DNA of 64,000 nt from NCBI GenBank assembly GCA_001687465.1, contig LVLI01000156.1, positions 1-64,000 on the forward strand, in the 5' to 3' direction. The position numbers and the translations under genes are program-made. The stretch's first letter is position 1. Each line of letters opens with the position of its first letter. Below, in pieces: positions 3,714-55,663 of the stretch. This stretch comes from Halocafeteria seosinensis. Lineage: Eukaryota. Under the pieces are notes generated by a model. The model had not been told where the DNA came from. It saw only the letters and a list, made by a program, of their open reading frames with translations, and made no database searches.

Positions 3714-4309
3714 AAGCTGTATACCCGTCAAGGAACTGAAGTAATGCCATACCAAACATACGATATCTCCACATGTAAACAAGAAGTGAAGCTGATATTC
3801 TTCACGTAATGCACTCTTCTCCGTGGAATGTATGGCATCTCATAGATATGCATTTAGTGTTGTCCAACCGAGCGTTTTGATTTGGTATGCTCGGACTAAA
3901 ATTGCTTACACGGCCTCCACTGAAGCAGTGGTCGGTGATGGGGGTGGACCAGCAAGCAACACACCGATGACACCCTGCTCAAGGAGGAAAAAGCTGAACA
4001 GTTGTCCTTCCGCTGCTGTATGCTCCTCGTCGAGGAGTCCTGGGAATCAGTCGTTTGACACTGCTGCAGGTTGAAGGTACATGTTTAGCATCAGTATCTA
4101 ACTGTTGAGCTTAGGCACAGTAGGCAAAACTACAACTAGGGGATATCAACTTTGTTAGTCGTCAAGATAAATTGATATTGCAACATCTTGTAAGTGAGCG
4201 TTTTTTTGGCCGCTCCAGTGCTGCGGACGGCATGCTTGGTATTTCAAATGGCGAAGAATTATCGTATTGAAATACTATCCCCAAGCCAAGATAAAACAAC
4301 AATTTGCTT

Positions 4310-12170: not shown

Positions 12171-13250
12171 CTTAGCTTATTTTCGGTCTTATCCGCCAGC
12201 ATGGAACACCGATACTGTGGCGATAGCTAGGGAGGTACAGCGAAAGTGCGGACTACATAGGATTAACGTATTATTTCAAACTGTGGACGGAATACATGAA
12301 AATGGTTCCCAGACAGCTTCCACAATCCCGGGACGCGGCTTGGTCGATTGAGTCCTCTGCCCCAGCTTGATTGCGTGGCTTGCTAAGCCTCATGCAGCAT
12401 GTGTAAGGGAACATTTGTACCGTATACCCCTCTTGTTCTGATAGTGCTGTAAGTGGGTAACTTTATGTCTGACAAACAGGTTATGACGCACCTTGCCCGC
12501 ACTTGTTCAGCGCGAGCAAGCAATCCAGAGGCGCTTGCTACATTGACTCATAGCCGCTATGGTTATACCTTGCATGGATAAACGCTGTAGATGTGTCGTG
12601 TGTTAGCCGTGAAAATGTAGCTTCTGCGTGGATTGCATAGGGAATACGGTAATGCAGGAACCTAGTTCAGGCAGCCGGGAACGTGTGACGCGAGTAAGAT
12701 GGCACAATGCTGCTATGAAATGGGCCCTTGAGGATGGATTCCTGTTGTATGTCGCGCTCTGACTCAGTACTTGGTGCCCCACTGATTGTTCTTGCAACCG
12801 TACACCCGGTCGCAGGTTGCGACGCGACCCAGCGGGAAGTACCGTTGAGCAGTCTGGTAGCCAGCTCGGGGTAACCTGTATTGTCCGCTTTGTAGGCAGA
12901 CATACTGTAAATGAGTAAGACTATAATGCACCCTAACCAGCATATGTGTCACGAAACCGTTTAAATAGTGATACTCCTTCCTTACAAGAAAACCTATAAC
13001 CTAGCAGGTCTATGAAACCAGCTCGGCTGTGGTATCAGCGTGTATGACGTGGTGTCCACAATCCTTGCTGCCACCAATAGAGGGACTAAATGGCAATGAT
13101 TATTGGAACCGCCTCCTGTAATCTGAAAGTGGTATTGTAGAAAATACAGGAGACAGGGGTTTCCGGGCTGAAATCCGATACTGTCAGGCAGTCAGGGCTG
13201 CCCTGCCCCGGAGCTCCGCCTGTCTGTCTCCGCTGCTGAATGAAGTGAAA

Positions 13251-14989
13251 ATGGCGGCAGACGAACGGAAGAGCAAGGAATGCGGAATGGGGAAACTGGA
13301 AGAACAAGCTACTACGTATCCGGGTGTGATCAATACTTCCAGCGTAAGTTCTTCGAACGGAGTCCATGTGTTCTCACGGTGTGAGTCTGACACACACCCA
13401 CACTTTGACTGCTGAGCTACAGGAATCGCCCATATTCAACACGACGACGGCTAAGAGCTGGAACAAAGTCCATGTCCAAAACGGTAAAAAGGGAGTAGAT
13501 CACGACAAAGGAGACTTGCTATCTGTGCCTACCCCTCTTGACCCAGAAGCGGGCCATACGCCTTCTTCGCTGACACTCTACGGGGCTGAGACTTCATCCA
13601 CCTTCCCTTGCGAAGATTCTGTTACAATTAGACAACGGAATGACGTTGCTTTTAAAGGCAGGCGCCGTTTTCTGTCCTCATTTGATAATCCCGAACCTAC
13701 TAGGCAGCAGACACAGGAACCGTGGCGTACGTACCGGACGTGTTGGTAGCATCTGTTTCTAGTGGTGATATCTTTCGCCCTTGCAGTTGATGATATGGCT
13801 GAAACCCGATCAGAAAGGCGGAAATTCGCTCCACCTCGAGAGGATACTGACAAGGCACAGGTATGTGAGATGACACGCAAGGAGTATCTCATGCATTCTA
13901 TCACAATGGATAGCACATATGTTGTGTATGTTTGACAGTTAACTCGCGGCCGACGTTCTAGCGAGAATGATCGTGGCTCGTCACTGAGGAAGCCTGTTTG
14001 GTTTAGTCGGTGCTTGATATGCAGAATTACTGAAAATGATGTACGTTCCGTTACTACCGCGCGGATATTCTTCTTATGAACCGGTCATATTCACGTTACA
14101 GATGCCGGACAACGACACGGATTCGGTGCTACAGAGAAACGAGACGCGTAGTGGCCGGCGACGAAGGAAAACACACAAGTATTCTTCAAGGCAGATTGTC
14201 CCCATATTGCCCCCACGAAATAGATCGGAACCAGTAAGCCGCAGTATTCTCATAACCATATACAACGAAAATGCCGAAAGCGCTGTCCTCGCGAGTGCAG
14301 GTATCAACTAAGAAGAAAATGTTGCCGATTCCCAGAAAAACAGATAACAAACCATGCCTTGTGTTGGATCTTGACGAAACTTTGGTTCATAGCTCGTTCC
14401 AGGTTCGTGCTGTATTACGTCCGATGGTTCTGATGGTTCTCTCGACAATTTGTTTACCGGTGTATCCCTGAGCTCGCAGAGAGTCAAGACAGCCGACTTC
14501 GTGGTCACTGCGAAAGTCGATGAGAATCCTCTTAGTATTTACGTAATTAAGCGCCCCTTTGTCCATGAGTTCCTGAAAACGTTGGCACAAAAATACGAAA
14601 TCGGTATTTTTACAGCAAGCCAGAAGGAATATGCAGAAAAAGTGGTAGAGCGCCTAAATGCGGATGGAACTATTCAATGGACCTTGTATCGCGAGTCTTG
14701 CACACTGTATAGGGGACAGCGGGTCAAGGATTTGAATCGCCTGCCTCGGCAACTTTCCAGAACGATCATCGTAGACGATAGGGACACCTCGTTCTTATTT
14801 CAGCCGGAAAATGGTATTGAATGCCTGCCATTCTATGGGAATGCCGAGGATGTTGAGTTGAAGAGCCTTCAAGGATTTCTTTTGGAGGCAAGCGACTCGG
14901 AGGGCCTGCTAGACCGTTTGAGGATGTTCGATCAATACCGGGACAATGTCGATAACGCAGTCCCTAATGAAAGCAAAAGTGAGAGTTAA
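13251..14989 (+). CDS. SCP/CTDSP-like HAD phosphatase, copy C, multi-exon
   Basis: KPCLVLDLDETLVHSSFQ, a shared intron and a complete NIF domain. The start (aaaATGG at 13251) is tentative. Confidence 0.82.
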
Positions 14990-15539
14990 CTAAGAACCAC
15001 CCCTTTTGTTTCTTGCATCTTGTAGCGACGGCTCATACGACGTTCGAGAATGCTCCAGAAAAAGTTGTCTGGAGCTATATGATAGACGCAGGAGCTTCCC
15101 GACACGCCGATTTACGATTCGATAGGAAATGTACAGGTTTCGAACAGTGACAGTCGTGGATCCAACATTGTCGCCGCAAATGTTTTCATTTCCCTGTTTC
15201 GAAAGCAGGTACGTGGCTTGCCGCACCGTAGTACCGGAGATCTCAGCGGATGTCAGTCAAGATACTAAGCGAACTCTAAGTGGATTGGTACCACTCTGTG
15301 TTGTAACATGCATACAGTTTGATGATTCACTTGTGGTTTTAATTTTGTACAAAATGTAATTTCTCATCGCTTTCCTCTTTCCTTAGCAGTCTTACACTGC
15401 TGTGAAACCATAAGTTGCACCCTGCGACCAAGATCCTATACCGCAACAACAGTGATACTGGTATGCCTTTTCGCTGCATGTAGCGGGTTTTGGATTTGTC
15501 TCCTTGAAGACAATAAATGCAAAGTGCGCGAAAAGATTC

Positions 15540-17086
15540 ATGAATTCACCTTTAAACAGTATTGTGGTGCCGGATAAAGTGCTCACCTCGTGGGCTGCCA
15601 GTAAGCCTGCGTCCTCACCTCGGGAGTCTCAGCTGATAGTGAGTTCAACATGTGTCGCCGTGCATGCAATGGTTATCATTTTCCCGTCCACTGGTCTCTT
15701 ATTTGTTTTGCAGCCTTCAGCATGTGGAGACTTTGAGTGCGAGTGTACTCCTTCCTGTAGTTCTGTGATGACAGTAACCAGCATTAAGTCTTCCTTCCGG
15801 TCCCTTGATGCGGGAAACAGTAAGACCCAACCTTTTGGGCTAGGATGTGAAGGGAACATCACATACATCGCTTATACTTCTTGTGGTATATCTGCAGATT
15901 CTAAGCTCTTGGGAAGAACACCAAGGGGAAACACTGCTCCTGGAAGAGGAAAGCCGTCTGCTGCCAAGGGTTGCACATCCAATGACGTTGCCAATCCCTG
16001 TGACCCGTCAACAAGCCTTCAGGAGGAGGCTCATGTTCAAGATTTTGAAATTTCGAAAAAAAATGACCCGGGCAAAAGACGTACCTTGTTTTGTCGATCT
16101 CTTCTTCAAGGCCTTATGTGCAATTCTTCGATAAACGTGGAGACTATGAAGAAGGTGCGGATGGTTAGAGTTCACAGACGAGTTAGAGTTGACTGACAGG
16201 CAATTGGCCGAGTGTAATGACGGCTGCAGAATACGGTTGTTCCTCAAGTCCCTTTGAACGATTTAGGGGCTCAGATCTTGGAGTCATCGACCTTTCCCCA
16301 TGAGAATGCGTCCGCAAATGCGTTTCAGGCCGAAGCAACGTTTATTGTGCAATCGACAACAAGAGTGAGACGGACGCGATCTATACCGGTAGGCAGTTTC
16401 GCTTGTCTGCTTCTGAAATATCCCGCACGCAAACGTGTCATATTCCACAGGAATATCGCCGTGGGAAAACGGCGTGCGTCCCTCCGAAGAAAGATAATAA
16501 ACCAGTGTTGCTTCTCGATCTTGATGAAACGTTAGTTCATAGCACCTTCAAGGTATGTCCTATTCCGTGTTTCTGTGGAACTTCTTCATTCGTAGCACCG
16601 ACGTCCATGTGCGGGCAGTATACGACACGAGCACACTACAGGTTGGAAGTCACAATGGGAAAGAAATTGGTGCCCATCTACGTCATCAAGCGTCCTTTCG
16701 TTGAACGATTTTTGAGCAAACTATCAGGAAAATACGAAATTGGGATCTTCACAGCTAGCATGGCAACATACGCTGAGTCTCTCCTGGCACGTCTAGATCC
16801 TGAAGGACATATCAGATGGGCGCTGTATCGTGACTCCTGTACCTTCTACAGAGGAAGCTGGGTGAAAAATCTTTCTAACTTACCCCGTGAATTGACACGA
16901 ACTATTATCATCGATGACAGGAAGAGTTCGTTTCAGTTCCACCCGGAAAATGGGGTTGAGTGCCGACCGTTTTATGGGGACGCAACTGATGACGAGCTAC
17001 TGAAGCTGGAACGTCTTCTGTTTGACCTAAACGTGAATACAGCCGATTTACGGCCACTGATCAATCCGTGGATCAATTGTGCTTGA
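15540..17086 (+). CDS. SCP/CTDSP-like HAD phosphatase, copy D, multi-exon
   Basis: KPVLLLDLDETLVHSTFK, a shared intron, then VIKRPFVERFL...FTASMATYA...IIDD...HPENGV. The 5' end is uncertain. Confidence 0.78.
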
Positions 17087-17615
17087 GTTTTAGGAGCCTT
17101 CTACGTCTATACACGATCACCCCTGGTTTATCATAAGAAAGTGATCAGGATGATGTGTCATTGATTGACGCTGCGTACAGTGTACAGTGAACTGTTACCC
17201 GTTTTGGCCTTGTACACGCGATACATTTGCAGTTGTAGTTCCGTCGTCGTGGAACACAAACAAATTGGGAATACCATAACATTACGATCCAAGATATCTA
17301 CTCTTTCAAACGCAGTAAAAAACTTTGAGTCAGTCTGTGCAACGTCTGTCTAACGTTGGTTGCCCCACGCACACGCAGGCTTCCTTCGCACCTTCACAAG
17401 TGTCGTGCCTGGTACAGCATGCTGCTGCTGCAGTGCTGCATACAGATGGCACCGCATGATGACGTCGTCATAACGAATCGTTGACGATTCGACGAAAGAC
17501 TTGTCAGCTGGAGATACAGCAGACAAGACATCGATGCTTGTGTTTCCCCCTCTGTGTCAACTCGAGAACAGTTGATGATGCGACTTCTTTCACAGACGAA
17601 ATGACATGAAGCACA

Positions 17616-31070: not shown

Positions 31071-34000
31071 ATGTCGAAATCGAACACAAGCAGTCTGGAT
31101 TTCATGGCGGAGCCAGAATCTCTGCTGCGAAAGGGTTCCCAGGACGGGGACCGAGATGATGACGACCTCCATTTGATGCGGAAGCATCGTAGACAATCGA
31201 GATGCAGCTGCCACTTCTTGTGCTCCTTTCGGTGGTGTACTCGCAGGGTAGGCTTTTATTCTACCTTGTTTGCTACACTAGCCTCCATCGCGGCGTATGT
31301 ATACCTAGCGGTCATTCTGGCCCCTTACAGAGGTGAGCTCTTTGTGCTCCTACACATGGTGGAATTAGCGCTTGACTTATCTATCTTACTGTGCTCGTTG
31401 ATCTCACAGATTTGTGCCAAGGTATCTTGGACGCAATCATTGCTATCCCCTTTGTCAGTCCGCTGCTGCTGATTGGCTTCACAATTCATCTCTGGAGGAC
31501 GAGCCGCGGACAACTTGCAGGTCTCTGTTTGTGCACACGTCTTCCCACTGAGTGGAAGAAGCTGAGGAAACAAAAAGCGAAACGAGACCTTGAAATCGAG
31601 CAGGATTTCTCTGTGTTTAGGACTAATGGCTTTTATGGGGACACGACCTTGGAGGACGTGCCAGCATCCCGGTGCTGCGAGCGGTGCAACGGGTGCAATC
31701 CACAACAGAAATGCGGAAAGATCTGTGTAAAGTGGTCAATATGGCTGTTTCTCACGTTTGTTACTACCATCGCCACTCTGGTACTTGTGGGTGCCTCGAT
31801 AGCTGTTGGAGTACTACGCAGCCAAAGTCTCCCCGATCTCACTGGCACCCAAACTCTGGACGGCCTACATGCAGAAGTTCAGGTTCGTGTTCCATCAACT
31901 CATTGAGATTTGCCCCTTCTGCATTCGTTCATTTCCCCTTGAATTTGCAGATTAATCGCGAATCCAATGGAGTCTTTCATATTCATGGAACGAATCTCGA
32001 AGATGTTGCTTTCGCCCAGGGTTTCGCGCACGCGCAATCGAGGCTATTCCAAATGGAGATACAAAGACGAGTTGGGAAGGGGACCGTTTCCGAGATTGCA
32101 GGTGAATCAGGACTAGACTATGATAAATTAACCCGTACTCTTGGGGTGTGGAGCGCCGCGCAGCGGACATGGCGAACACTACAGGCGGATACGCATAGCG
32201 CTTTCGCCGTCAGTTTATTACGAGCATACGCTAACGGAGTTACATCTTTTATCGACAAAGATGAGGGGATGCCTATTGAATTTACATTGCTCGGCTATAA
32301 ACCAGAACCTTGGATTCCAGAGGATTCTCTTGTGTGGGCGAAGATGATGAGCTGGGATCTAGGACTCAACATGGACAAAGAGCTTCAACGCTTTCGGCTT
32401 CATGATGAACTTGGCTGTTCAACCGAACGTGTAGAAACCTTGATGCCCAAGTATAATCTTTCAATGGGACCGACAATTCTCAGCAATATAGATCTTCCTC
32501 CTTACCAACTTAGAAACGGTACAGAGGAAGCGGATGAAGAGGAGACGGACTTGCTCATTCAGGCAGCGACAAACATCGCGTCTAGGGCTAACATAACTAG
32601 AATTCCACCTACTTTTGGTAACGATGCGAGTACAGGAGGGCTCATAGAGCACCTACAAGTAGCAATTAGCAGGTTCGTCTTCAAGGGGATGTTTGATGAT
32701 CCCCGAGGCTCTGGAGGCAATACGATCTCCGGTCTGCGGAAGATTCCAAACATGGGCTACGGAGCCAGCAACAACTGGGTTGTTCATGGAAACCATACAA
32801 AGAGTGGTTTTCCTCTTCTTTGCAATGATCCCCATCTTCAATTGCAAGCACCATCTCTCTGGATTTTAAACGGGTTGCATGTTCGGAATTCCAGCTTTAC
32901 GCACAGTGTTGTAGGTTCCAGTTTTCCTGGAGTTCCAAGTGTAGTACTTGGCCACAATGAGCACATCGCCTGGGGTGTGACGAACACGTAGGTCCTATTA
33001 TGTATGGGAGGTTGTGCCTCTCAGTAGTATGTATTCCGCTTTGCGCACGCAGAGGTGCGGACGTGGAGGATCTTTATGTGATGGACACTGTGAACTCAAC
33101 ACATTACAAGTATAATGGTACTGTGAAGAAGTTTGAGCTAACGAAAGAGACCATAAAAGTTAAAGGAGGAAGCGACCGACATCTAACTGTCCGAAACAGT
33201 GTCTTTGGCCCCGTTATTACTGACAATGGTGTCGTGGAGGGTATCGACACGCCACTAAGTCTGAAATGGATTTCGATCCTTCCAGATATCAACGATACGA
33301 CGGTGAAAGCTTTCATCGAGATCAACTTTGCCAACTCCTTCGAAGATTTCCGAGAGGCTCTATCGTATTTTGTTGCCCCAAGTCAGAATTTTGTTTTTGC
33401 GGATAACGAGGGCAACATTGGGTACCAAATGTCGGGCAAGGTTCCTATAAGATCTCCAGGCCACAGTGGTGCTTGGCCCGTGCCAGGCGATGGTATGTCA
33501 ACTGCTACCTCATTTCTCTCACTGGAATTATATTGTATACCTTTGGTTCCTTTGTCTATCAGGGGCGTGGAACACAACTTGGCATGGATATTTAGACTTC
33601 TTTAGGGATATGCCTTGGACGAAAAACCCGAGGAAGGGCTTCATTGCGACAGCGAACAACCAGATAGTTCCTCCAGATTATCGATTTCACCTGTATGTAT
33701 GCTTCGTACTATGCTACAGCAGCGCTGCTATTGTATACTTCACCGTCGCCTTGCAGAACATCCGACTACGATGCGGGGTCTCTAGGGTATCGTGCTGCTC
33801 GCATTACCGACATGATAAATGACACCATTGTTCAAGGTGAAAAACTATCTGTAGACAGGATGAAAGAAATACAGTTGGACTATCGATCCTACCAAGCTCG
33901 CGATCTTGTGAAACTTGTGTTTGCGAATATCCCTCGCTCCGCGTTTGGCGAAAGCACTCGTCCCATGCGTGACGCACTGATAGGCTGGAACTTTGAGCTC

Positions 34001-34869
34001 CCAATAGGAGATCGAATGGCACCACTCTATGGAATGATATTACGAGAGCTCTATCGCCTTGGTTCTTCGGAGACAAACAAAACACGATACGAGGGTCCTG
34101 GGTTTTTGCTCTCCGCGCTCAGTGGAGGGCACGATATCGCATGCGTCGAATCCTATGGAGGCATCCATCCCTCGTCCTGTAATGATTTCGTTATCAAGTC
34201 ACTAGAGAACGTCACCGACTGGTGGAATGATAACGTTGAATCTGTTAAAGCGGATGGAACGATTAGCTTCAAAAGTGGTGCTAAACGCTGGGGGAAAGAT
34301 ATCCATAAAGCAAGATTCAAATCGCTCTCGTTGGGAACATCTCCCTTGGCCTGTTTAGCAAACCGTTTCATTGCTCATGGTACGTCAGAATCGTTGAACT
34401 ACTTCTGAGACCTGTCAATTCCTCATCGTTATTCCATTCCCTCAGGTGGAGACGCGTTTACAGTAAATGTTGGATCTTTCGATATTGACGACGATGATCT
34501 GTTACAAGTCCATGGACCAAGCTATCGTGATGTAAGCCCATTGTATTGCTGTTGTTGCCGCAGGAACTTATCTTCGCTATAGCTGTTTGCTGACAGGTCA
34601 TTGATCTCAGCACTGTGGGGCCAGATTTAAGCGAAAACTCCCAGACTAGCTTGTTCGTCAATCCGTTGGGTCAATCGGGCAGAATCTTTAGTGATCATTA
34701 TGATAACATGCTATCTTCATGGTACGTTTTCCCCCTCATGTATGTTGGAGTTACTCTGATGCATTACTAGGCTGGACCTGTGAACAGGAGCGAAGGCAAG
34801 TACTATGATATGACTCTCCAACAGTCCAAGAAGTCAGATTCCGACAAGTCTCAGCAATTGAAACCGTGA
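31071..34869 (+). CDS. Peptidase S45 (penicillin acylase / AHL acylase family Ntn-hydrolase) with N-terminal TM region, copy 1, ~9 exons
   Basis: FAQGFAHAQSRLFQMEIQRR, nucleophile GA|SNNWVVHG, NDPHL, LGHNEHIAWGVTN, PSQNFVFAD, ATANNQ, GPSYRDVIDL and PLGQSG...HYDN. The stop is at 34867-34869 after splicing. Confidence 0.9.
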
Positions 34870-43434: not shown

Positions 43435-46400
43435 TTAAGGTTTTAGTGTCTGACTAATATCGGAATCAGAGTCTTCAGAATTCTGAAGGATCATTGGATA
43501 ATACTCTCCTTTGCTCCTGCTCTAATCGAACCCAGACGGCTAACGAAGCACAGTAGACCTCTGTTTAAGGCGAAGATGACTTACCAAGAACTTAGCATAC
43601 TATCATAATGCTCGCTGAATAGTCTTCCAGATTGACCCATTGGGTTCACGAAAATGCTTCTCTGCTCGGTGTCCTTCACCTTTGCCCCGACGCTAGCCAT
43701 ATCCATTATCTGCACAAGCCGTCCACATTTCGACAGATATATACATTTTTTGGTTGATCGATGATGTCGTAAGTGTGCGTCAGCCTTACCACTCTGTAAC
43801 TGGGCCCATGTACTTGGGGTACCTTCTCTTCCTCCAGTTCGAATCCACCCACGTTAACAGTGGAAAAATCGCCACCTGCAAATTGTCAACATTGCTTGTT
43901 AAGCATCTGGCTAAGGAAAACTGGAGTCAATTAAACTGCAAGTACCATGCCCAGTGTAACGGTTTGCCATGCATCCCAACGGCGAGCTTCCTAATGAATT
44001 CGATATAAACTCAGCTTGATGCAAATCTGTTCCCCAACGCGGAGCTCTATCACTGAACGTAACTTCTCCTAAGTGGTTAACATCTTGAACAGAATTTTCC
44101 CAAATGTCAGAAACGTTTTCGAGAGATTTGATAATGAACTCGCTACAAGAGCTAAGATGACGACCGCCGAATTCAAACTGGGTGCAAGCGGGATCATGAC
44201 CACCACTAAGTGCCGAAAGCAAAAAGCCCGCAGAGGGATAGTATGTCTGGTTGGTTTCCCAAGAACCTAGGCGAAACAGTTCTCTGAGTAATCTTGCGTA
44301 CACAGGAGTCAGCCTATCTCCAACAGGCTGCCTAAAATCCCACTTGTTTAGGGCCTGCCTAATTTCTTGCGAACTCTGACCCAGTTCACTGACTGATACG
44401 CTCGTAAGCACGTATTTGACAATGTCTCGGGCTTGATAGGACATGTAGTCTAACTGAATCTTTTTCATGCTCTCAATCGTCATCTTTTCACCGCCGGCAA
44501 TGTTACCCTTGACCATGTCTGTTATCCTGGCCGCACGATAACCCAGTGAGCCCGTTGCGAAATCTCTACTCCTGTACAACCACAAGGTTAAATTTGAGGT
44601 ACACACTCCTCATAACAAGTGAACATAATTGCAACCAATACTTACAGAAGATATCGGTATGTCGGGGGTACAATCTGGTTATTGGCAGAGACGACGTATC
44701 CTTTCGACGGATTGTAGGTCCAGGGCATATCTTCAAAGGGCAGATACCCATGCCAGAGTGTTTCAAATGATCCTGTACAGCAACACCAAACACTCTCAAC
44801 CGTACTGTTAACGTCCAACCAACTACATAAAAAACTCACCATTTCCCGGCATAGGCCACGCCCCAGTGTGTTCCGGAGAGCGAGTTGGAACAGAGCCGGA
44901 AAGCTGATACCCTATGTTCCCGGACGTGTCAGCAAACACAACGTTCTGGCTTGGCGCTGTAAAATATTTCATTGCGTTCCGAAATTCGTCGAATGACTTT
45001 GCAAAATTCGTCAGAGTAAATGCTTCCACAGTAGTATCATCTACGTCCGGGTCGATGGAAACCCATTTCAAACTTAACGGAGCCTTGATGCCTTCAACAA
45101 TGTTGTTGTCAGTTACCACAGGGCCGTACACACTTGAACGGACTTGCAATATTTTGTCGTTCCCACCCTTAACGACTACTCGTTCTTCTCGGATATCAAA
45201 CGGCATTAGGCTCTGATTCATCCTATAGTGGGTAAAGTTTACGGCATCCATCACATATAAATCTTGAACATCGGCACCCCTGCACATGGTAGCGTTATTC
45301 TTACATCAGGTAGTAGTAGTCTTGGTACAAATTCAAACGTAAGTTCACTTACGAATTGGTGACTCCCCATGCAATATTCTTATTATGTCCTAAAACCACA
45401 CCGGGAATACCGGGAAAACTAGCACCAACAACCCCGTTTGAGAAAGTGGAGTTCTCGATCCGAAGTCCGTTCAAAATCCAAATAGATGGGGCCCCTAGAC
45501 GAAGATGCGGGTCGTTACAGAGGAGAGGGAACCCTGACTGAGTATGATTTCCATGAATAACCCAATTGTTGCTGGCGCCAAAACCCATATTGGGTGTCTT
45601 GGCCAGTCCCGACAGTGACCTCGATTCTCGACCTCCTGGGTTGATCCACTCTCCGTAGATACCGTCAAAGATGTACCTTCTAACAGTCGATTGCAAAGAC
45701 GCCGAAAGCGAGTCAACAAAACCATTAACTGGCTCCCCGGCCTGTTCATATGGTGTCGCGAGGGAATCGTCAGGAGCTGTATTGCCTAGTTCCAGAGCCT
45801 GACGAATAAGGGTCTCCTGGCTACCTTGCATTCTGGAGTCATCAGCTACACGCTGCGAAGGGGGCAACTCATCAGTACTAAGTATAGTGGGGCCCCAACT
45901 AAGATTGTAGGCAGGCATAAGGGTATCCACTCGCTCTGGTGCGACTCCTAGAACGTGGTGAAGACGAAAACGGCTTAGTTCTTCGGCCATATTCTTGCTA
46001 AGATCATAGCTCATAAGCTTGCCCCATACAAGGGAATCTTCTGGGAGCCAAGGATCAGGCTTGTAACCCAGCAAACGGAATTCAATGGGCATCCCTTCGT
46101 CTTTCCGTATAAACTCGTTAACGCCCTGGGTATAAGCGCGAAGAGTGTTGGTAGCGAGGCTGCCACGGGATTTATCCTTCTGCAAGACCTTCCATGTAGC
46201 TTTTGCAGCTTCGTATACCCCTAGCGTCCTCATCAGCTTATCTATTTCCAAACCGGATTCTCCAGCAATTTCAGACACTGTGCCTTTGCCGATTCGTCTC
46301 TGTAACTCCATTTGGAACAGGCGCATTTGACTGTGTGCAAATCCCTGAGCATAAGCAACATCTTCTATGCTCTTTCCATGAATATGGAAAACTCCATTGG

Positions 46401-47370
46401 ACTCTCGGTTAATCTGAATATCAGTTCAAACAAGTCTCTACATTCTATCAGCGTGAGCTTGCGGCTGAAGTCGAAACTTACCTTGACGCCATCGTTTAAC
46501 CCTTTCAGGGTTTGCTCTCGACTAAGATCTGGGAGACTTTGGAAGCGAAGCACCGCTAAGCCTATCGCCCCTATTACTAGCAAGAGCGTCGCAATGGCAA
46601 CGACGAGTGTCAAGGTCACCCATGAGAACCAAAGGACCCATCGCTTCCATGGAGTTTGACGGCTGAGATGGCACGCATTACATCGATTACAGCAATTCGA
46701 CTCGGGTAACTGATCCAATGTCGAGTATTTGTGTGAGGATGCGTTCCTTAAAACGGAGAGGTCTTGCTCCGTTTCCAGATCTCTTTGTGGTTTCTTCTGG
46801 ACCATGCTCTTCCAGTTGCTCGGAAGTGTTGTGCACAGACAGTATTGCCCAAGTTTTCCGCGGCTTGTGCGCCATAAGTGAATCGCGAATAAAGCTAGTA
46901 GCGTCGGTCCCAAAATGGGCAACGCAATCATCAAGTCTCTTATCAAGGGACACAAATCTGCACCAGCAAGCAAATTGGAATCGTGGTACAAAAACCAGTT
47001 CGATTGGCAAAACCCCTGAGACAAGTAACTTACGTCGGTAAGGGTTGAGTACGACAAGAAGGTACACATACGCGAGGGTCGACAGAATCGCTGTCCCAAT
47101 GGTAGCGTACAATCCTACGGTGCGTGTGCACCAGCGGCATGACCCAATGAACCTGCAGGAGCATCGAGGAGCTCTACGGCGCCGGTTCTCAACTTCGGAG
47201 ACTTCCAGGCCTTCCAGATGATCCGTCATGACATGGATATCGTCCTCGCTTTCAAATGGACCGTGAACATCCTCGTGTCGGTGCTCTGAAGCGCAAGCGC
47301 GTCCGGAGGAAGACGGATTCGTGTTCATCACGGGGGTGTAGCGAGGCAATTCCTGCTGTTTTGACGCCAT
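43435..47370 (-). CDS. Peptidase S45 acylase with N-terminal TM region, copy 2, multi-exon
   Basis: RLFQMELQRRIGKG, GA|SNNWVIHG, NDPHL, LGHNKNIAWGVTN, PSQNVVFAD and VSANNQ. Intron positions match copy 1. The stop TAA is at 43435-43437. Confidence 0.9.
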
Positions 47371-48103
47371 GGCAACGTCGTGCCTCCCCACAGTATAAAG
47401 CTACTACTGGTTGTTGCCTTTTTTTGTCTGTCTTTTGAGGGAAAGGAAGGCAGGTCAACTGGCACCATGCATAACAAACCCGCAATGAACGACTTGTGAA
47501 GCCAGAATCTAAGATACCGGGTCCGTGTGTCATCAGACGGGGAATGAATCGGCACGGTTGTACTGGTACTTTGGGCTTTAAGCTACATGCATAGCTTACT
47601 GTCGATCGATTGCAAGAGAACTTTGAAACATGTTTCATGACACCGGCTCCTTCAGCATCGTCGCATTTGACAAGAGTGAGAGTTCAACCATCAACAATCA
47701 ACTGCGTAGGACGTGGCTGAGAAGGCAAATGCGGATATCCGGCTTATTAGACGACGTCGTCGTCGATTAGATACAAGGGACACGTGTACCGTTAGTTGAT
47801 GCAGTTCATGGACAGATACCGGTTGATAGGATATGCCCGGCGTTCTACTCCTGTTTGAGTTCCAACAAGCGGGAATCTCAGAAAAGCGGAACGTAAAGAA
47901 TGGAGATTCTTCAGTAGAGAGAGAAATACTAAAGACCCAAAACTATAACTGTAACCAATAAATGAGAAATCGAGAGAGCAGCTGAGTTCATTTGGTATCT
48001 ATCTGTGTTCTCGCTTAGCAACTGGGCACTAAATGCCATACCACACGGTACAGTAATGTATAGCCTGCTACCTATTCCAATTACTACTACCTACGAAAGC
48101 AAG

Positions 48104-51100
48104 CTAATGGTTTTCAGGGTGAGACTGTCGTCTATCAACGAAATACTGAAGTTTGGCAGACCGCTTCGACCTGTAGAGTGAGTCCACTATCTCAAACTTT
48201 ACGGAGTCCACATTCGTTCCGGTATTAAAGACATTATTTTGAAGGTCCAGACAAACTGAATGCAACGCTTTTGAAATGTCAAGTAGTTTGTCCGAGGATG
48301 GTTCGACAATTGCCAAAGTTACTGTACTCTTGATCCCTTCCTCACTTCGGTCGATCCACAGCTGAAACATGGACGGAATGTCTTCTTCAAACCGGCACTG
48401 TTTTAGACCGTTCCTAACTACCGTGGCCACTTCCTCCCAGGAGATGAACTTGGAGCCAAAAGGCATGCTTCTGCTACCAGGCGTTCTTCCGAGCACCTCA
48501 ATCTTGGAACAACTGTGGCCCACCTGCTTAACGAGGTCGCCCGTGTCGAAGCGAACGAGTGGATGCTCTTTCCTAACAAGGTTTGTTAGTACCAGTCGCC
48601 CAGGGTTACCCGGCTCAACGGGAGTGTCCGCATCTTGTGCTAGTATCTCGGGGTAAACGGTATCCGATGCGATTGTATAATGTTCTGTGTCTCCAGCTTC
48701 TTGCCCAATGGCAAAGACGCCAGCTTCAGCGCTGCCATAAACTCCAAATAGTTGACACTCAGAATGGCACATATCTCGAATGAAACTACGCTGATTTATA
48801 TCCAGCGGCTCGCCTCCATGGACAACTCGACGCACGGTAGGCAGTTTTCGACCTAGATTTTTACATGTCAGTGCCAATTGAAGAATCCTCGTTCCCCACC
48901 CTGCAAGAAAGTTAACTCCAAAATGATATATTGCTTCCAGTACCTCATCATCGGACGCATTAGCTCCAACAGGTAGGTGAGTAGCGTTCACTTGCAGCAA
49001 CACGTCCTGAAAGACTTCCATGGAACGGATCAAGTTGCCGGAGGCGAATAGATTAACAGCGACCACCTCCGTATCCAATAAACCGGATATTTGCATTTGC
49101 TTTCTCAGTCTCGTCCTCATCGTTACATTTTCACTATTTGTCCGGGGTACAGCAACTTTAGAGCTCGACGATGCTGAATGAGCTGGTGTTGTGCCTCCTG
49201 CTGGACTCCAGTAGAGTCCACCCTTGCCATAGAAACATGTTCCAAAGTGGTCCTGCAACCGACCAACAAGTTGCTGTTTCGATAAAATAGGCCATGCACG
49301 TAAGTTAAAGCCCGACAGTGATCTCCCTAAGTAAGTAAGGGACAAATCATTCCTGTCGTGGTACATCCGATGACGCTTGGCAGACAACAGTACACTATCA
49401 ACTTCAGGTGCGTTGTCAAANTCAAATCTTATGCGCTGCAGATATCGGCGGGATTCCTTAATTATTCCACGCGAATGAGCAAACCGGTGATTATCTGTTA
49501 TCAAGATTGTACGCTCTGGAACTACCATGGCCGACGCATCGCACCGTTGCTGTAGTATCTCCTCAAGCCTATCAAACGCTTTCCAAAACTTCGCTTCTTG
49601 TTCTTGCGTGAGGTCAGATGTGTCAATGCTGTCCCTTCTCAAACGAGCTCGCGTATCAGAAAGGAGTACCGGACCACGTATGCGATCAATTTTGCCCTTT
49701 TGGAACTCTGGGGGGACTTTCCAATTAACTTGCGTCTCTTGCAGTATCACTTCGTCCTGCGCCGAAAGATCGGCGACGGCGTCCCCGACTGATGTAAGGC
49801 CGAAAAGACCATGATACGTCTTGTCGGCCCTAACGATGGCAAGAGCGACAAAGCGGGGAGGAGGTTCTTCGAAAGTGGCGTCTGTGTGGACATCGAACTG
49901 TTTCTTAGTATGCGACCGTGCAACATGTCCTCCACTAGCAGGCTGAGGTTTGACGTCCCATACATATCCTTCCTTGTCACTATGTCGTCGAAGATTTCCA
50001 CCCAATATGTTTTCGATAAATCTTTGGAGTTGATCCTTGTTCCCTAACTCGGATTTCGTAGCAACTAGTGCCATCCCATCCTTTGCCAAAGCCTCCCTTA
50101 TGCCATATCCGTCAACTGTTTCAAGTCCACCATAGAAAAAACGATCGCTACGTGGAATATCAGAGATTAGAATTGCCGGAAATATAGGGATACCACCCGA
50201 AGACAAACTAATGACGTGACTAGCAGAACTTCTGCACAGTCCAGGGCCATAGTGAATGCCGTCCAGTGACAGAAACGTCCCGACCACCCGATAACGAGTA
50301 ATCTGGAATGCTGAACTCGTTACTTGGAATTTATGTTGACGCACGTATGGTTGAGCGACGTGCTGCCCATGTTGCCTGAGTTCCTGTAACTTTTCATGAA
50401 ACTCGCTTGTCGTAAATTGGCTCTGCACAACGACCCCTTCGCCTTTTCCCGCGAGACGTGGTTTGATTACCATGCCATCCTGCATTAGTTCCATTGCCCC
50501 GTCATCCAAACGCTCTAGTGATATTGTCGGAATAACGTGCCTCTTTAACGTCTTTCTGTATTCTTCCGATAAATTCCCTACTTCTGATCTAAGAAGTTGT
50601 AGCATCAACTTGTCGTGCGCTAGGAAGATGGTCCGTAGGTCGTTCAAGCACCGCCCTCGCTGAGATAGACGAGCAAATCCTTTAAGGACGTCCACGCTAA
50701 GAGAAAGGATTTCGTCTTGGTGAAGCTCAAGAATGCACTGATGTACCTCTTTGCTGGCTCCATCCTGCGAGACTATGGCCAGTGCTCCGTGTGGGGTGCA
50801 GAAAATCTCCGAAGGATTGCAAACGCAAACGCCGAGATAAGTTAGCTGCCCGAAGAGTCCTGTGTCATGCACGGTCTCCCTACCTCGTACAATCCAGACG
50901 GTCGTATCCCTCTCAAATCTACTCCTTAAATCCTTTATCAGACTCATGCTAGCACTGTCGGCGGATATACTGTAGTCAGATAAGCAACTGGATCCGGAGG
51001 CTGCCGCTTCATGTAGCGCACTGTTAACCACAGCTCCAATCAGGAACCCATTAAGCGGAAATCTACAATTTATTTCACACACTTTAATATCCCCATCCTC

Positions 51101-51487
51101 GGTAAACAAGAAATCAGGCCTCAAAGTCCCGAGGGATGTGATCGTACCACCTCCGTCTCCCCACACCTCTGTGAAAACCTCTTTAATTTTTTCAGGAAGC
51201 GGTAGTTTCTTCTGGAGTGTTGGTTCTCGAGGCCACCTGGAAATAAGGGAGCAAAGACCCGCATATACTGCGTCATTAATCTGAGCTAGCAATTGACATT
51301 GCTGAGGTGTCCAGACAAATGGACTAGGGGATGTAGATTCCAACATCTCCGTCAAAGCTGGCGAAACCTCCAAGGCCCCGAATGCTTCCCATGTAACGTC
51401 CGCCATGTTGCCTTGGTATCTGCTTTGACTCACATCATCCCTGAAAATATTGCTTTCGTATTTACCTCCACACTCTTTGAGCTTCAT
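48104..51487 (-). CDS. Tri-domain enzyme: circularly permuted ATP-grasp ligase + TauD/CAS-like Fe(II)/2OG dioxygenase + phenylacetate-CoA-ligase-like (PaaK/ANL) domain
   Basis: ATP-grasp: LRPDFL...VCEINCRF, HDKLML, VIKPRLAGKGEGV, VAQPYV. Dioxygenase: HTD, DNHRFAHSR, LQRIRF. ANL: PILSK, HGGEPL, YGSAEAG, LVLTNL...PLVRFDTGD, VLGRT, SAKL. It is a single open frame with one N at 49421. The start is ATG 51487 or 51406. Confidence 0.82.
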   Translation of the reverse strand: MKLKECGGKYESNIFRDDVSQSRYQGNMADVTWEAFGALEVSPALTEMLESTSPSPFVWTPQQCQLLAQINDAVYAGLCSLISRWPREPTLQKKLPLPEKIKEVFTEVWGDGGGTITSLGTLRPDFLFTEDGDIKVCEINCRFPLNGFLIGAVVNSALHEAAASGSSCLSDYSISADSASMSLIKDLRSRFERDTTVWIVRGRETVHDTGLFGQLTYLGVCVCNPSEIFCTPHGALAIVSQDGASKEVHQCILELHQDEILSLSVDVLKGFARLSQRGRCLNDLRTIFLAHDKLMLQLLRSEVGNLSEEYRKTLKRHVIPTISLERLDDGAMELMQDGMVIKPRLAGKGEGVVVQSQFTTSEFHEKLQELRQHGQHVAQPYVRQHKFQVTSSAFQITRYRVVGTFLSLDGIHYGPGLCRSSASHVISLSSGGIPIFPAILISDIPRSDRFFYGGLETVDGYGIREALAKDGMALVATKSELGNKDQLQRFIENILGGNLRRHSDKEGYVWDVKPQPASGGHVARSHTKKQFDVHTDATFEEPPPRFVALAIVRADKTYHGLFGLTSVGDAVADLSAQDEVILQETQVNWKVPPEFQKGKIDRIRGPVLLSDTRARLRRDSIDTSDLTQEQEAKFWKAFDRLEEILQQRCDASAMVVPERTILITDNHRFAHSRGIIKESRRYLQRIRFXFDNAPEVDSVLLSAKRHRMYHDRNDLSLTYLGRSLSGFNLRAWPILSKQQLVGRLQDHFGTCFYGKGGLYWSPAGGTTPAHSASSSSKVAVPRTNSENVTMRTRLRKQMQISGLLDTEVVAVNLFASGNLIRSMEVFQDVLLQVNATHLPVGANASDDEVLEAIYHFGVNFLAGWGTRILQLALTCKNLGRKLPTVRRVVHGGEPLDINQRSFIRDMCHSECQLFGVYGSAEAGVFAIGQEAGDTEHYTIASDTVYPEILAQDADTPVEPGNPGRLVLTNLVRKEHPLVRFDTGDLVKQVGHSCSKIEVLGRTPGSRSMPFGSKFISWEEVATVVRNGLKQCRFEEDIPSMFQLWIDRSEEGIKSTVTLAIVEPSSDKLLDISKALHSVCLDLQNNVFNTGTNVDSVKFEIVDSLYRSKRSAKLQYFVDRRQSHPENH

Positions 51488-51841
51488 TATCGTCCCGTGA
51501 GAATTTTCTAACTGGTAATTGTGAAGCAGCGCCCAATGACTGCAGTTAACCACGTATATACCGTTATAATTATGCGCTGGCACTATTTACACGCAGGTAT
51601 TAAACTGTACGAATGCCTTGCTCTTCAGAACAACACAACTTGGATACCCATCATTGCCTACTAGCGTAGGGGAGCCTTTCCCGGTACCCTCACTACCCTG
51701 GTATTTACTTCACACTGTTGGTTCACAAACTGCTGGTACAGTGCTGCAGCCTGCAAGAATTCAAGCGGTACCACGATATAGCCGCTTCACTGCATGTATA
51801 TTGCTATCCACCAAAGCCGAGAGGCAAAACAAAAGAAAGGG

Positions 51842-54800
51842 CTAATTAGAAGGCCGCAAAATCTGAGACTCTTCAGAATCTGAATGTTTCGATGACTGAA
51901 GTATCATGCTAAAATACCCGTTGTTGCTCCTGCGAGGAATAACACACAAAACGAAAACTAGATTTAGAGTGGAAACGCTTATTGCACTGATTCTAGCATA
52001 CCATGTCTTTAACATGTTGTCGTACTGAGCGCTGAATATTCTATCCGACTGCCCCAAAGACTCAATGAACAAACTTCGCTGAAATTGCTCCGGTTTACCC
52101 ACAGAATCAAGATCAACAACCTGCGCTAAAAATCGCCGTCAGGAGCGGCTATAAACGACACAAACATAACCTAGAACCTACTTGTCGATAGCCAGCACCA
52201 TGATCTTGGGTAAATTTAGTGTCTGTCACTCCAAAGGATCCGACATTAACTGTGGCAGAGTCGCCACCTGTGCAAAACATGCAAACTACGATACCCAGCA
52301 ACCGATAGCTCATCGACCAACGAATGCATCTCACCTTGAGAAGCGTATCGGTTAGCAAGACATTGCAAGGCAGACCCTCCCAGGGATAACGATTCAAACC
52401 TTGCTTTATGAATTTCTTTACCCCACCTTTGAGCATCGTCCTCAAATCTGAAACAGCCGGAATTGGAACATGCTCTAACACTAGAATTCCACAGACTGGT
52501 TAGATTGGCTAACGACCTCACTACGAAATCGTCGCAAGAGCTGGGATAGACACCACCATAAGGATAAGCCGTACATGCTGAATCGTTTCCGGTCAGTGCA
52601 GACAGAAGAAACCCGGTAACCTCATAAAATGGTTCACCCGTCTCCCAAGAGCCTAGACGAAATAGCTCCCGCATGAACATAGCATAGAGTGATGCATGTT
52701 GGCTTCCTACTGGGAGCTCAAAGTTCCAGCTCCGTAGAGCTTGGTATATGCTATGCGTACCATTGACAAATTTCGACGGGGGGATGTGCGCTAAAACGAG
52801 CTCGACAAGATCTCGAGCCTGGTAAGACTTCAAGTCAAGCTGAATAAGCTTCATATCCTCCAGTGATAGTTTCTCGCCTCTGTGAATAGTCGAATTGATC
52901 ATGTCTGTTATGCGAGCGGCCCGGTACCCTAAAGCGCCGGAATCGTAATCCGAAGTCCTGCGTATAAGCGAAAAACACCTTTCAGGGATTTTGCGTGCAG
53001 GCGCGCAAATAGCGTACTACATACAAATGAAAGCGATAGCTTCGTGGGACTATCTGGTTGTTAGCGGTGGCGACAAATCCTTTGCTTGGGTTCTTCGTCC
53101 AGGGGATATCCTCATAGAAATCAAGGAAACCATGCCAGGTAGTGTTGTAGCTTCCTGTCGAAAGGCGTGTTTGGGCGTTATGATAGAGTAGAAAATGACT
53201 ACAACTTCACAGCCACGTACCGTCTCCTGGCACCGGCCATGCTCCTGTGTGTCCACATGACCTAACTGGAATCATGCCTGACATCTGATAGCCGATGTTT
53301 CCTCTGTTATCCGCCACGACGAAGTTTAAACTCGGTGCGACAAAATAGGACATCGCCTTGCGAAATTCTTCGAACGATTTCGCAAAATTCATTTCTATAA
53401 ATGATTTCACGGTAGTGTCAGTAAGTTCTGGAACAGTTCCGATCCACTTTAGGGACATTGTGGAACCAAAACCATCCACAACATCATGATCAGTGACCAC
53501 AGGCCCAAACACACTAGATCTAATTGCCAAGACCTGATCCTCTCCGCCATTCACCTTAATCACTTCTTCTCTGACATCGAACGCCTTCACAGTCCCATTG
53601 AACCTATAGTGAGTAGCGTTGATAGCATCCATTACGTACAGGTCCTGTACATCGGCCCCGCTGGAAATTCAACGGAGAATATCCCCCAGTGAACATAAAA
53701 AGATATAGAAAGTATCTTTAACATGCTTACGTATTTGTAAGGCCCCATGCAATCACCTCATTGTGTCCCAGTACTACACTCGGAACGCCAGGAAAACTCG
53801 AGCCGACAACAGCATTTGAGAATGTTGAGTTCCGAACATAAAGGCCATTGAGGACCCAAAGAGAGGGGACCAGTAAGGGTAAATGTGGATCACTACTGAG
53901 AAAAGGAAGCCCAGATTCGGTATAGTTTCCGTGTATCACCCAGCTGTTACTCGCTCCATATCCTTTGTAAGTCATCTTCCTGAGGGAAGAAAACATTCTG
54001 TGTAAAACAGACTTGCTTTCGCAAGAGTTTCTCCAGAGTATAACATTCACAAAATGCGTAATTCCAGCCTTAACCAGCGTCCAGGGGTTCTTGGGCTGTG
54101 CCTCTTCAACAGAACTACCCAACCCACCATCGCCCTGAGTATTCTCAAGCATTCTACCCTTTTCAGCTTTAACAAAAAGGTTAGCTGCTGCTTCGATTAT
54201 TCTACCCTCACCTGCGCATTCTGATGTGCTACTTGAAACTTGCGAAGAAGGCAATTCTTCTTCATTTAGAATTGTTGGCCCAAGCGTAAGGTTGTAAGGG
54301 GGTACCAGTTCCTCAACCCGCTCTTGAGATGCACGTTCCTCATTTCGGAGCCGAAATCGCTTTAGCTCCAGCTTCATATTCAATCCCAGTTGCCAACTCA
54401 TCATTTTAGCCCAAACCAACGAATCTTCAGGCACCCAAGCAGAAGGTTTATATCCCAAAAGCGTGAACTCAATGGGAAGTCCTTCATCTTTGTCAATGAA
54501 CGCGTTGACTCCTTGAGCGTATGATTCCAGTATCCTCAATGTCAATGCATTTGCCTCCCCCTCTTCTTGCATAGACCTCCACGCTGTACTCACAGCTTCC
54601 CAAAGTCCTAACGTACGTGACAGTCTGTCGAACTCCAGTCCACCAGTTCCGGCGACTTCGGAAATCGTACCCTTTCCAATTCGCCTCTGTAGCTCCATTT
54701 GGAATAGCCGCGATTGGGCATGTGCAAACCCTTGGGCAAAGGCAACATCTTCGACTGTGCTTCCATGAATGTGGAATATCCCGTTTGACTCACGATTAAT

Positions 54801-55663
54801 CTGGAAGGCAGTCCAGGGCAAACAGGTCCAAGTACACAATTTAACAAGAACACCTACAGCGAATTGAGTTAAGAATTACTCACCTGGACTACATTGTGTA
54901 AACCATGTACAATTTGAGTTCCTGAGAGGTCGGGTAAGCTACGGCTTTTCAGAATGGCAAGAGTTATCGAGGTAGCAGTAAGAAGCAGTGTTCCGACCAC
55001 AGTTACGGTCGTCAATAAAAGCCAAGAGAGCCAAAGAACCAAGTATTTAGGCGATCGGTTTCTCAGGTTGCAGCCATTACAACGTTCGTTCCACTTGGAC
55101 TCCGGAAAACCCTCCTCACTTGCGTAGCTCAACGCGGTAGAGCCACCGAGAACAGAGAAATCTTGCTCTATTTCAAAATCTCGTGTAGCCTTTTCTTTTC
55201 GCAGATGCCTCCAGCCTCGTGGAAGATCAGTACACAGGCAAAGTTGACCAAGGACTCCCTTGCTAGTTCTCCAGAGAAACCATGTGAACACGAGCAGAGG
55301 CAACGGACTGAAAAAGGGCACAACTATCAGAAGAATCTCGATGAACTGACACAGTCCTGGAAACACAGTAGAGCGATGGAGTTTCCAGGATACATCAGCG
55401 AGTGGTAACTACAGAATTACTGCCAATCACTCACCTGCGAAAGGGGCCAATATGACTACCAGGTAGGTGTACGCTAAGATTGAAGACAGCAAGCCGAGAA
55501 AGGTAGCATAGAAGGACATTCTTCGGGTACACCAACGACACGAGCAAATAAACACACAATTGCATCTGCGACGCCTACGCCACTTTATTGCTAGGCGAGC
55601 CTCCTCCGTGTCATTCTCGCTTCTTTCGAACTCCTCCTCCACTCTCGACGTGGTAACATTCAT
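51842..55663 (-). CDS. Peptidase S45 acylase with N-terminal TM region, copy 3, multi-exon
   Basis: FAQGFAHAQSRLFQMELQRR, GA|SNSWVIHG, SDPHL, LGHNEVIAWGLTN, PSLNFVVAD, ATANNQ and GAGYRQVVDL. Intron positions match copies 1 and 2. Confidence 0.9.

What the first reader, a model, noticed from the sequence alone, without database searches (positions are those of the whole stretch)
43435..55663. Synthetase flanked by two co-oriented S45 acylases: possible acyl-on/acyl-off biosynthetic gene cluster in a protist
Seen: on the minus strand the order is S45 copy 3, the tri-domain enzyme, then S45 copy 2, with gaps of only ~350 and ~730 bp; a third S45 lies ~8.5 kb further away, inverted. Established: S45 enzymes cleave N-acyl amides (penicillin G acylase removes phenylacetyl; PvdQ removes the fatty acyl group from the pyoverdine precursor). 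Fungal penicillin synthesis also combines an amide-forming enzyme, a non-haem iron oxidase, a phenylacetyl-CoA ligase and an Ntn-hydrolase, though from different families. Inference: the cytosolic enzyme makes an N-acylated oxidised peptide that membrane-anchored acylases mature, release or detoxify. The product class (siderophore-like, beta-lactam-like, signal) cannot be read from sequence.
Basis: inference. Interest (0 to 1): 0.85.

Follow-up and report, generated by a model that had tools for sequence, protein, structure and literature searches.

The report
One-gene E-64-type inhibitor synthetase in protists
A single gene of this protist fuses the three kinds of enzyme that fungi keep as separate genes to make the protease blocker E-64, so it likely makes a similar small molecule on its own, while the acylase genes on either side are probably only neighbours.

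Summary
The gene order and gaps are as described. The interpretation changes. The 1127-aa gene (48104-51487, minus) is a Cp1B-family ATP-grasp ligase (best PDB match by sequence and fold, four catalytic residues kept), then an Fe/2-oxoglutarate oxygenase, then a PaaK-like adenylating domain. Those three enzyme classes form the minimal fungal E-64 cassette (Cp1B, Cp1A, Cp1D). The same three families sit together in 29 of 69 related loci, mostly bacterial operons, and in one chain in 21 of 150 relatives, including a diatom and a chytrid. So the product class can be read from sequence: most likely an epoxysuccinyl-amino acid-amine cysteine-protease inhibitor. Orthology of the last two domains to Cp1A and Cp1D could not be tested directly. 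The S45 link is not supported. No S45 lies in any of the 69 loci. The three S45 copies are old paralogues predicted to face the lumen, and they lack the pocket arginines of dicarboxyl-acyl acylases, although D-succinylase is their best PDB hit. A decayed inverted fragment of the synthetase beside it marks local rearrangement. Verdict: a new one-chain variant of a known pathway, extending it to protists; probably not an acyl-on/acyl-off cluster.

The parts
48104..51487 (-). Intronless gene for a 1127-aa tri-domain synthetase (ATP-grasp, oxygenase, adenylating domain); no predicted transmembrane segment
   Evidence: P0001, 100% identity; model pLDDT 93.3, pTM 0.91
50153..51358 (-). Domain B, residues 44-445: Cp1B-family ATP-grasp ligase; R123, D125, E138, N140 match Cp1B R139, D141, E163, N165
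   Evidence: E 1.3e-25 to PDB 9cjn; top fold match, TM 0.73 by target length
49406..50122 (-). Domain A, residues 456-694: TauD/clavaminate-synthase-like Fe(II)/2-oxoglutarate oxygenase with H534-x-D536...H671
48125..49324 (-). Domain D, residues 722-1121: PaaK-like adenylate-forming (ANL) domain with SPAGGTT, YGSAE, TGD and K1112
47529..47859 (+). Decayed inverted copy of the synthetase coding sequence (about residues 705-842); 224 of 289 aligned bases identical, many deletions
   Evidence: score 131.5; 100 shuffles 33 +/- 3.8, maximum 43.5
51842..55663 (-). S45 acylase copy 3: spliced gene, hydrophobic N-terminal segments, beta chain starting with Ser
43435..47370 (-). S45 acylase copy 2, same build
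31071..34869 (+). S45 acylase copy 1, inverted relative to copies 2 and 3

Best explanation
The tri-domain gene fuses a Cp1B-family ligase, an iron/2-oxoglutarate oxygenase and a PaaK-like adenylating domain, and it likely makes an E-64-type cysteine-protease inhibitor by itself, while the flanking S45 genes are probably an unrelated old tandem array. Inferred steps, by analogy with Cp1A/B/D: the oxygenase turns fumarate (or succinate) into trans-epoxysuccinate; the ATP-grasp domain phosphorylates it and joins it to a hydrophobic L-amino acid; the adenylating domain activates that pseudodipeptide and joins it to an amine such as a polyamine. The epoxide would then alkylate the catalytic cysteine of papain-family proteases. 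The target (competitor, grazer, parasite, prey, or the cell's own cathepsins) is untested. The S45 proteins would be lumen-facing acylases for hydrophobic acyl amides, with a separate, probably digestive job. The synthetase probably came to lie between copies 2 and 3 through local rearrangement.
For: Shown: Cp1B is the best PDB match by sequence (family profile E 8.8e-66, next hit 2.7e-8) and by fold. All four residues whose mutation impairs Cp1B are kept and are present in 70-71 of 77 family members. Three of four residues of Cp1B's side-chain pocket stay hydrophobic (F175>I150, V477>L417, I488>L428; read off the alignments). The paper's minimal cassette is an Fe/2OG oxygenase + Cp1B + an ANL enzyme, and a bacterial oxygenase only about 20% identical makes the same epoxide. 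The three families co-occur in 29 of 69 loci in changing order, and 21 of 150 top relatives hold all three in one chain; named ones are a diatom and a chytrid. Fungi fuse Cp1B-like domains to the same A or D families (Aspergillus ibericus, Orbilia, Peziza, Stachybotrys). Against an S45 role: 0 of 69 loci (697 kb) hold an S45; 0 of 100 neighbouring ORFs scanned are S45; 5 of 19 cassette-bearing genomes have no S45 match at all. S45 copies are only 52-57% identical with mostly shared intron positions. Their catalytic regions carry 12, 8 and 11 glycosylation sequons against about 5.7 expected, the synthetase 4 against 4.5. The pocket Arg positions of glutaryl and succinyl acylases are Leu, Val and Asn in all three copies.
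Against: Cp1A, Cp1D and Mfa sequences were not obtainable (no Microcoleus-type hit in 400 sampled genomes of the phylum), so domains A and D are matched to them by class and by co-occurrence, not by direct comparison. The nearest solved relatives of domain A are hydroxylases of amines and amino acids at 16-21% identity, which says nothing for epoxidation. The paper itself notes Cp1B/Cp1D homologues in clusters unrelated to E-64, and B without A sits in a different context in four loci. Cp1B pocket residue V228 is His207 here. No polyamine decarboxylase lies nearby (it is dispensable in fungi). For an S45 link: the best PDB match of the S45 copy tested is D-succinylase, an S45 named for N-succinyl-amino acid amides, and 14 of 19 cassette-bearing genomes do have an S45 elsewhere. 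Many of the 69 loci are short or redundant, only about four hold a eukaryote-type fusion with flanks, and none is from a close relative.
Confidence: 0.55

Rival explanations
1. Same fused ligase-oxygenase-ligase logic, but the product is a related pseudotripeptide without the epoxide (fumaryl, malyl or succinyl amide, or a hydroxylated amino acid or amine part); S45 genes unrelated.
For: Domain A resembles amino-acid and amine hydroxylases most. Without Cp1A the fungal ligases make fumaryl and malyl products. Cp1B/Cp1D homologues occur in other clusters. His207 replaces V228.
Against: Epoxide synthesis is kept between fungal Cp1A and cyanobacterial MfaA at about 20% identity. Family A keeps five near-invariant arginines that would suit a dicarboxylic acid (inference) and shows hits to the glutarate hydroxylase family.
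Confidence: 0.25
2. True cluster: the synthetase makes the inhibitor and the lumen-facing S45 acylases cut it, to protect the cell's own lysosomal proteases or to release a matured product.
For: Direct flanking and shared orientation. Best PDB match of the S45 is D-succinylase, whose substrate class resembles the first amide that Cp1B makes. All three S45 keep the catalytic Ser, Asn and Arg.
Against: No S45 in 69 related loci. No pocket arginine for a carboxylate. Gaps to unrelated genes are shorter. The window has other tandem arrays. Penicillin amidases are reported in several unrelated protists.
Confidence: 0.13
3. Siderophore-like or beta-lactam-like pathway, as in pyoverdine/PvdQ or penicillin/clavam synthesis.
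For: Weak match of domain A to clavaminate synthase (E 8.7e-7, 28.7 bits against a cut-off of 450); S45 includes PvdQ and penicillin acylases.
Against: No NRPS, IucA/IucC, IPNS-type or beta-lactam synthetase domain among the 39 window ORFs scanned. The ligase is Cp1B-like by a wide margin. No such genes among 100 neighbours of related cassettes.
Confidence: 0.04

Closest known systems
E-64 cassette cp1/cp2 of Aspergillus flavus (Cp1A, Cp1B, Cp1D) and the cyanobacterial mfa cluster (PMC12568646)
   Same: Cp1B-family ATP-grasp ligase with its catalytic residues, an Fe/2-oxoglutarate oxygenase and an ANL enzyme: the three classes of the minimal cassette.
   Different: One polypeptide instead of three genes; a protist instead of a fungus or cyanobacterium; about 23-27% identity to Cp1B; no decarboxylase; His at one pocket position; product not shown. 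The main text has no occurrence of 'fused', 'fusion' or 'protist'.
Dapdiamide pathway (DdaG, DdaF), as described in PMC12568646
   Same: NRPS-independent pseudotripeptide made by one ATP-grasp and one adenylating amide ligase; weak DdaG model hit (E 0.024).
   Different: Opposite order of the ligase steps, extra steps in between, different ATP-grasp family.
S45 acylases of dicarboxyl amides: D-succinylase (7EBY/7EA4) and glutaryl-7-ACA acylases (4HSR, 1FM2)
   Same: Best sequence matches in the PDB for the S45 copy tested; Ser nucleophile and Pro-His motif kept.
   Different: Pocket arginines absent; eukaryotic, spliced, with three hydrophobic N-terminal segments; low identity.
Fungal penicillin pathway and pyoverdine/PvdQ
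   Same: Amide-forming enzyme, non-haem iron enzyme and an Ntn hydrolase in one region.
   Different: No NRPS; other oxygenase and hydrolase families; the S45 is not conserved with the synthetase.

Membership tests
E-64-type cassette (Cp1A/Cp1B/Cp1D) | Cp1B-family ATP-grasp ligase with R139, D141, E163, N165 | tested here: met
   R123, D125, E138, N140
E-64-type cassette (Cp1A/Cp1B/Cp1D) | Linked Fe(II)/2-oxoglutarate oxygenase with an intact iron triad | tested here: met
   H534, D536, H671
E-64-type cassette (Cp1A/Cp1B/Cp1D) | Linked ANL-family enzyme with intact adenylation motifs | tested here: met
E-64-type cassette (Cp1A/Cp1B/Cp1D) | Oxygenase and ANL domains are orthologues of Cp1A/MfaA and Cp1D | tested here: inconclusive
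   Sequences or accessions not found in the held text or supplements; no PDB entry so named among the hits; only indirect support from fungal fusions
E-64-type cassette (Cp1A/Cp1B/Cp1D) | Hydrophobic pocket for the amino-acid side chain (F175, V228, V477, I488) | tested here: inconclusive
   I150, H207, L417, L428: three of four hydrophobic; position 228 varies across the family
E-64-type cassette (Cp1A/Cp1B/Cp1D) | Makes (2S,3S)-trans-epoxysuccinyl-amino acid-amine | not testable with these tools
   needs enzyme assay or metabolite analysis
Peptidase family S45 (flanking genes) | PF01804 match; beta chain starting with Ser; oxyanion Asn and conserved Arg | tested here: met
Dicarboxyl-acyl S45 acylases (D-succinylase, glutaryl acylases) | Arginine in the acyl pocket (beta24, beta56/57 or beta69) | tested here: not met
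   Leu, Val, Asn in all three copies; by sequence alignment only, no S45 model was built
Conserved biosynthetic gene cluster including S45 | S45 linked to the synthetase in other genomes | tested here: not met
   0 of 69 loci, 0 of 100 neighbour ORFs; loci of the closest relatives P0002/P0005 could not be fetched
Conserved biosynthetic gene cluster including S45 | Co-expression of synthetase and S45 genes | not tested
   no read or expression data were obtained

The most novel reading that the evidence does not exclude
Protists across several lineages make E-64-type cysteine-protease inhibitors with a one-chain, NRPS-free synthetase, and in this genome that gene has been captured in a true cluster with lumen-facing S45 acylases that destroy the inhibitor before it reaches the cell's own digestive proteases: a biosynthesis-plus-self-resistance cluster in a protist. 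The first half alone (one-chain E-64-type synthetase in protists) has a probability of about 0.65.
Probability: 0.1. Interest if true: 0.88.

Novelty: new variant of a known kind. Interest (0 to 1): 0.58.

Why it matters
Almost no small-molecule pathways are assigned in heterotrophic protists and few in diatoms. This gives a concrete one-gene prediction: an epoxide protease inhibitor made by a widespread, unnamed eukaryotic fusion family. It can be tested by expressing one ORF. A three-activity single chain would also interest people who use Cp1B and Cp1D as biocatalysts. The same cassette occurs in bacteria that live with or in eukaryotes (Midichloriaceae, Vibrio, Coxiellaceae; lifestyle recalled), which suggests that blocking host or predator cathepsins may be a shared use (inference). 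The chemistry itself is probably known, which caps the interest.

Tried and rejected
No whole genome is held for the window, so copy number and wider context were not checked. First genome scan with the eukaryotic alignment found nothing; viral contigs and plasmids found nothing. A search of 400 sampled genomes of the phylum of G001 for the ligase found no further match, so the mfa cluster could not be retrieved. Word-based searches for stand-alone oxygenases returned no fungal or Microcoleus protein. Fungal-looking ligase-only loci L028, L029, L035 had no A or D neighbour within their 3-4 kb. The Atlas search of the whole protein gave only scores under 0.8; the domain search gave no answer. 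I first read the PLP decarboxylase beside the cassette in L061 as Cp1C-like; it is a glutamate decarboxylase and is not beside the cassette in L057, so it is not used as support. Recent transfer from bacteria was considered and not supported: GC and GC3 match the host genes, and both trees place the gene among B-A-D fusions with the diatom and chytrid proteins (SH-aLRT 99 for 24 of 135 rows in the A tree; 98 for 22 of 67 rows in the D tree; quick trees, midpoint root, near-duplicates and partial domains left out, most rows without a taxon name). No complex prediction was run, since no binding is claimed. Literature searches for a fused or protist version found none; the library lacks most subscription papers.
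Full report
Observation. The order and distances are real. S45 copy 3 (51842-55663), the tri-domain gene (48104-51487) and S45 copy 2 (43435-47370) lie on the minus strand with gaps of 354 and 733 bp; copy 1 (31071-34869) is on the plus strand, 8565 bp away. The gaps are ordinary for this window: the unrelated outer neighbours are 20 and 182 bp away. The tri-domain gene is intronless and equals a complete protein from a eukaryotic transcript set (P0001, 100%), so it is expressed. No genome is held and no call fixed the organism's lineage.

The N-terminal domain. The best PDB match is Ligase Cp1B (9cjn; E 1.3e-25). A profile of 26 stand-alone relatives gives E 8.8e-66, with homoglutathione synthetase next at 2.7e-8. 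An AlphaFold2 model of the whole protein (pLDDT 93.3, pTM 0.91) has Cp1B as its top fold match, followed by PaaK-type ligases. Cp1B is the ATP-grasp enzyme of E-64 biosynthesis (PMC12568646; I read parts 1-3 of 14 of the text, the Discussion, the Extended Data legends and passages). With the 15-residue offset seen in the printed alignments, Cp1B R139, D141, E163 and N165 correspond to R123, D125, E138 and N140, each kept in 70-71 of 77 family members. Cp1B pocket residues F175, V228, V477 and I488 correspond to I150, H207, L417 and L428.

The other two domains. The middle domain is a TauD/clavaminate-synthase-like oxygenase with H534, D536 and H671. Its nearest solved structures are amine and amino-acid hydroxylases at 16-21% identity (Z 22.9, rmsd 2.4, 225 aligned for BBOX1), so the fold does not give the substrate. 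The C-terminal domain is PaaK-like with intact adenylation motifs. In the paper, an Fe/2-oxoglutarate oxygenase (Cp1A, fumarate to trans-epoxysuccinate), Cp1B and an ANL amide synthetase (Cp1D) are the minimal cassette, and a cyanobacterial MfaA of about 20% identity makes the same epoxide. I could not get the Cp1A, Cp1D or Mfa sequences: the held supplements lack the table, the preprint's passages give no accessions and its supplement is closed. The match of these two domains to Cp1A and Cp1D is therefore an inference.

What travels together. Of the 150 best representatives (2238 hits in all), 18 have the order B-A-D, 2 D-B-A and 1 A-B-D; 51 are B-A. Named ones include the diatom Stephanocyclus/Cyclotella meneghiniana and the chytrid Nowakowskiella, and ascomycetes with B-A or B-D fusions. 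In 69 fetched loci (35 metagenome, 34 genome), 29 hold all three families, 13 A+B, 8 B+D and 19 B alone. Several loci are duplicates or only 2-4 kb long. Both quick trees place the window protein in a clade of fusions with the diatom and chytrid proteins, and its base composition matches the host genes. This is an old, patchy eukaryotic fusion family. An earlier unchecked note of this scan (e1-8376801) reads a bacterial operon of the same three genes as E-64-like; I saw it after forming this reading and do not count it as support.

The S45 genes. All three are intact spliced genes, 52-57% identical, with mostly shared intron positions (the automatic models were imperfect at the first and last introns, whose ends were fixed). 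Each has three hydrophobic N-terminal segments, and the catalytic part carries about 1.4 to 2 times the expected glycosylation sequons, which points to a lumenal or outer location; the synthetase has neither feature. No S45 was found in any of the 69 loci, 697 kb in all (the profile came from window exons, one of which finds bacterial S45 enzymes at E 1e-9 to 1e-25). None of 100 neighbouring ORFs is an S45 (89 of 128 selected, plus 11 others). L002, a eukaryotic contig with the same fusion, has PUL, RNase PH and rhodanese neighbours and no S45 in 19.9 kb. Among 19 cassette-bearing bacterial genomes, 14 have an S45 elsewhere and 5 have none (7 further handles not held; genomes may be incomplete). 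But these enzymes have arginine in the acyl pocket: R305 and R350 in D-succinylase, R24 or R226 in glutaryl acylases (PMC11241749, Table 1 and passages), and loss of that arginine abolished glutaryl activity in one of them (PMC8197700, part 1 of 3 and passages). All three copies have Leu, Val and Asn at those positions. That the D-succinylase arginines bind the carboxylate is my inference; its own paper was seen only as a reference (PMC12149444 passages). Penicillin amidases are reported in other protists (passages of bioRxiv 10.64898/2026.01.29.702485 and PMC7285305).

Signs of rearrangement. Between the synthetase and copy 2 lies a decayed inverted copy of synthetase residues about 705-842 (47529-47859; 224 of 289 aligned bases; score 131.5 against a maximum of 43.5 in 100 shuffles). 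Copy 1 is inverted, and the window has other tandem arrays. This fits a gene that came to lie inside an S45 array, but it does not prove it.

Mechanism. Shown: three domains with intact catalytic motifs, Cp1B kinship, conserved co-occurrence of the three families, no conserved S45 linkage in what was examined. Inferred: fumarate is epoxidised, joined to a hydrophobic amino acid, then to an amine, giving an irreversible inhibitor of papain-family proteases. I put the E-64-type product at about 0.65 and S45 independence at about 0.8-0.85, together 0.55. A non-epoxide relative gets 0.25, a true cluster with S45 0.13, siderophore or beta-lactam 0.04.

Novelty. The chemistry is probably known. New are the one-chain form and the range in protists. 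Six literature searches (listings and abstracts, plus irrelevant passages of PMC13493320) found no report of either, and the main E-64 paper's text has no 'fused', 'fusion' or 'protist'; its unseen supplementary figures on homologous clusters could mention fusions. Verdict: new variant of a known kind, interest 0.58.

Noticed in passing
window 47529-47859 (+): Decayed inverted copy of part of the synthetase, just downstream of it; a long 3' read-through could fold back on the coding sequence, or it is only a rearrangement relic.
   Followed up: partly
L061:5064-9737 (Ca. Aquarickettsia rohweri), L057 and L067 (Midichloriaceae), P0175 (Rickettsiales endosymbiont of Trichoplax): Host-associated Rickettsiales with 1.1-1.3 Mb genomes keep the oxygenase plus a ligase-ANL fusion followed by a MATE exporter (L067 is cut after the ligase start). 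A candidate inhibitor of host cathepsins (inference).
   Followed up: partly
L036-L040, L042-L048, L051: The three-gene cassette is common in Obscuribacterales and related genomes, in several gene orders.
   Followed up: partly
L055:5147-9717, L056:5077-8440, L054, L066: Cassette in Vibrio ostreicida and V. caribbeanicus; oxygenase + ligase in a Coxiellaceae genome; in pieces in Piscirickettsia salmonis.
   Followed up: no
L059, L062, L065, L068: Cp1B-like ligase without the oxygenase or ANL gene, beside a family 2 glycosyltransferase and, in three of the four, a glutathione-synthetase-type ATP-grasp gene: probably a different, undescribed pathway.
   Followed up: no
P0022, P0023, P0025, P0028, P0052, P0146, P0207: A subclade of the fusion family with fast-evolving oxygenase and ligase domains (low profile scores, long branches) but a conserved ANL domain.
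   Followed up: no
P0009, P0016, P0018, P0026, P0030-P0033 and others: 51 of 150 top relatives are ligase-oxygenase fusions without the ANL domain; some are contig-cut, but many look whole and might make only the epoxysuccinyl-amino acid.
   Followed up: no
window about 9000-17100 (+) and 2546-5209: Four tandem NIF-family phosphatase genes and another duplicated segment: tandem arrays are common in this genome.
   Followed up: no
S45 copies, N-terminal 220-250 residues: All three carry a Cys-rich, basic N-terminal region with three hydrophobic segments and no Pfam match looked for separately; unusual for S45 enzymes as I recall them.
   Followed up: no
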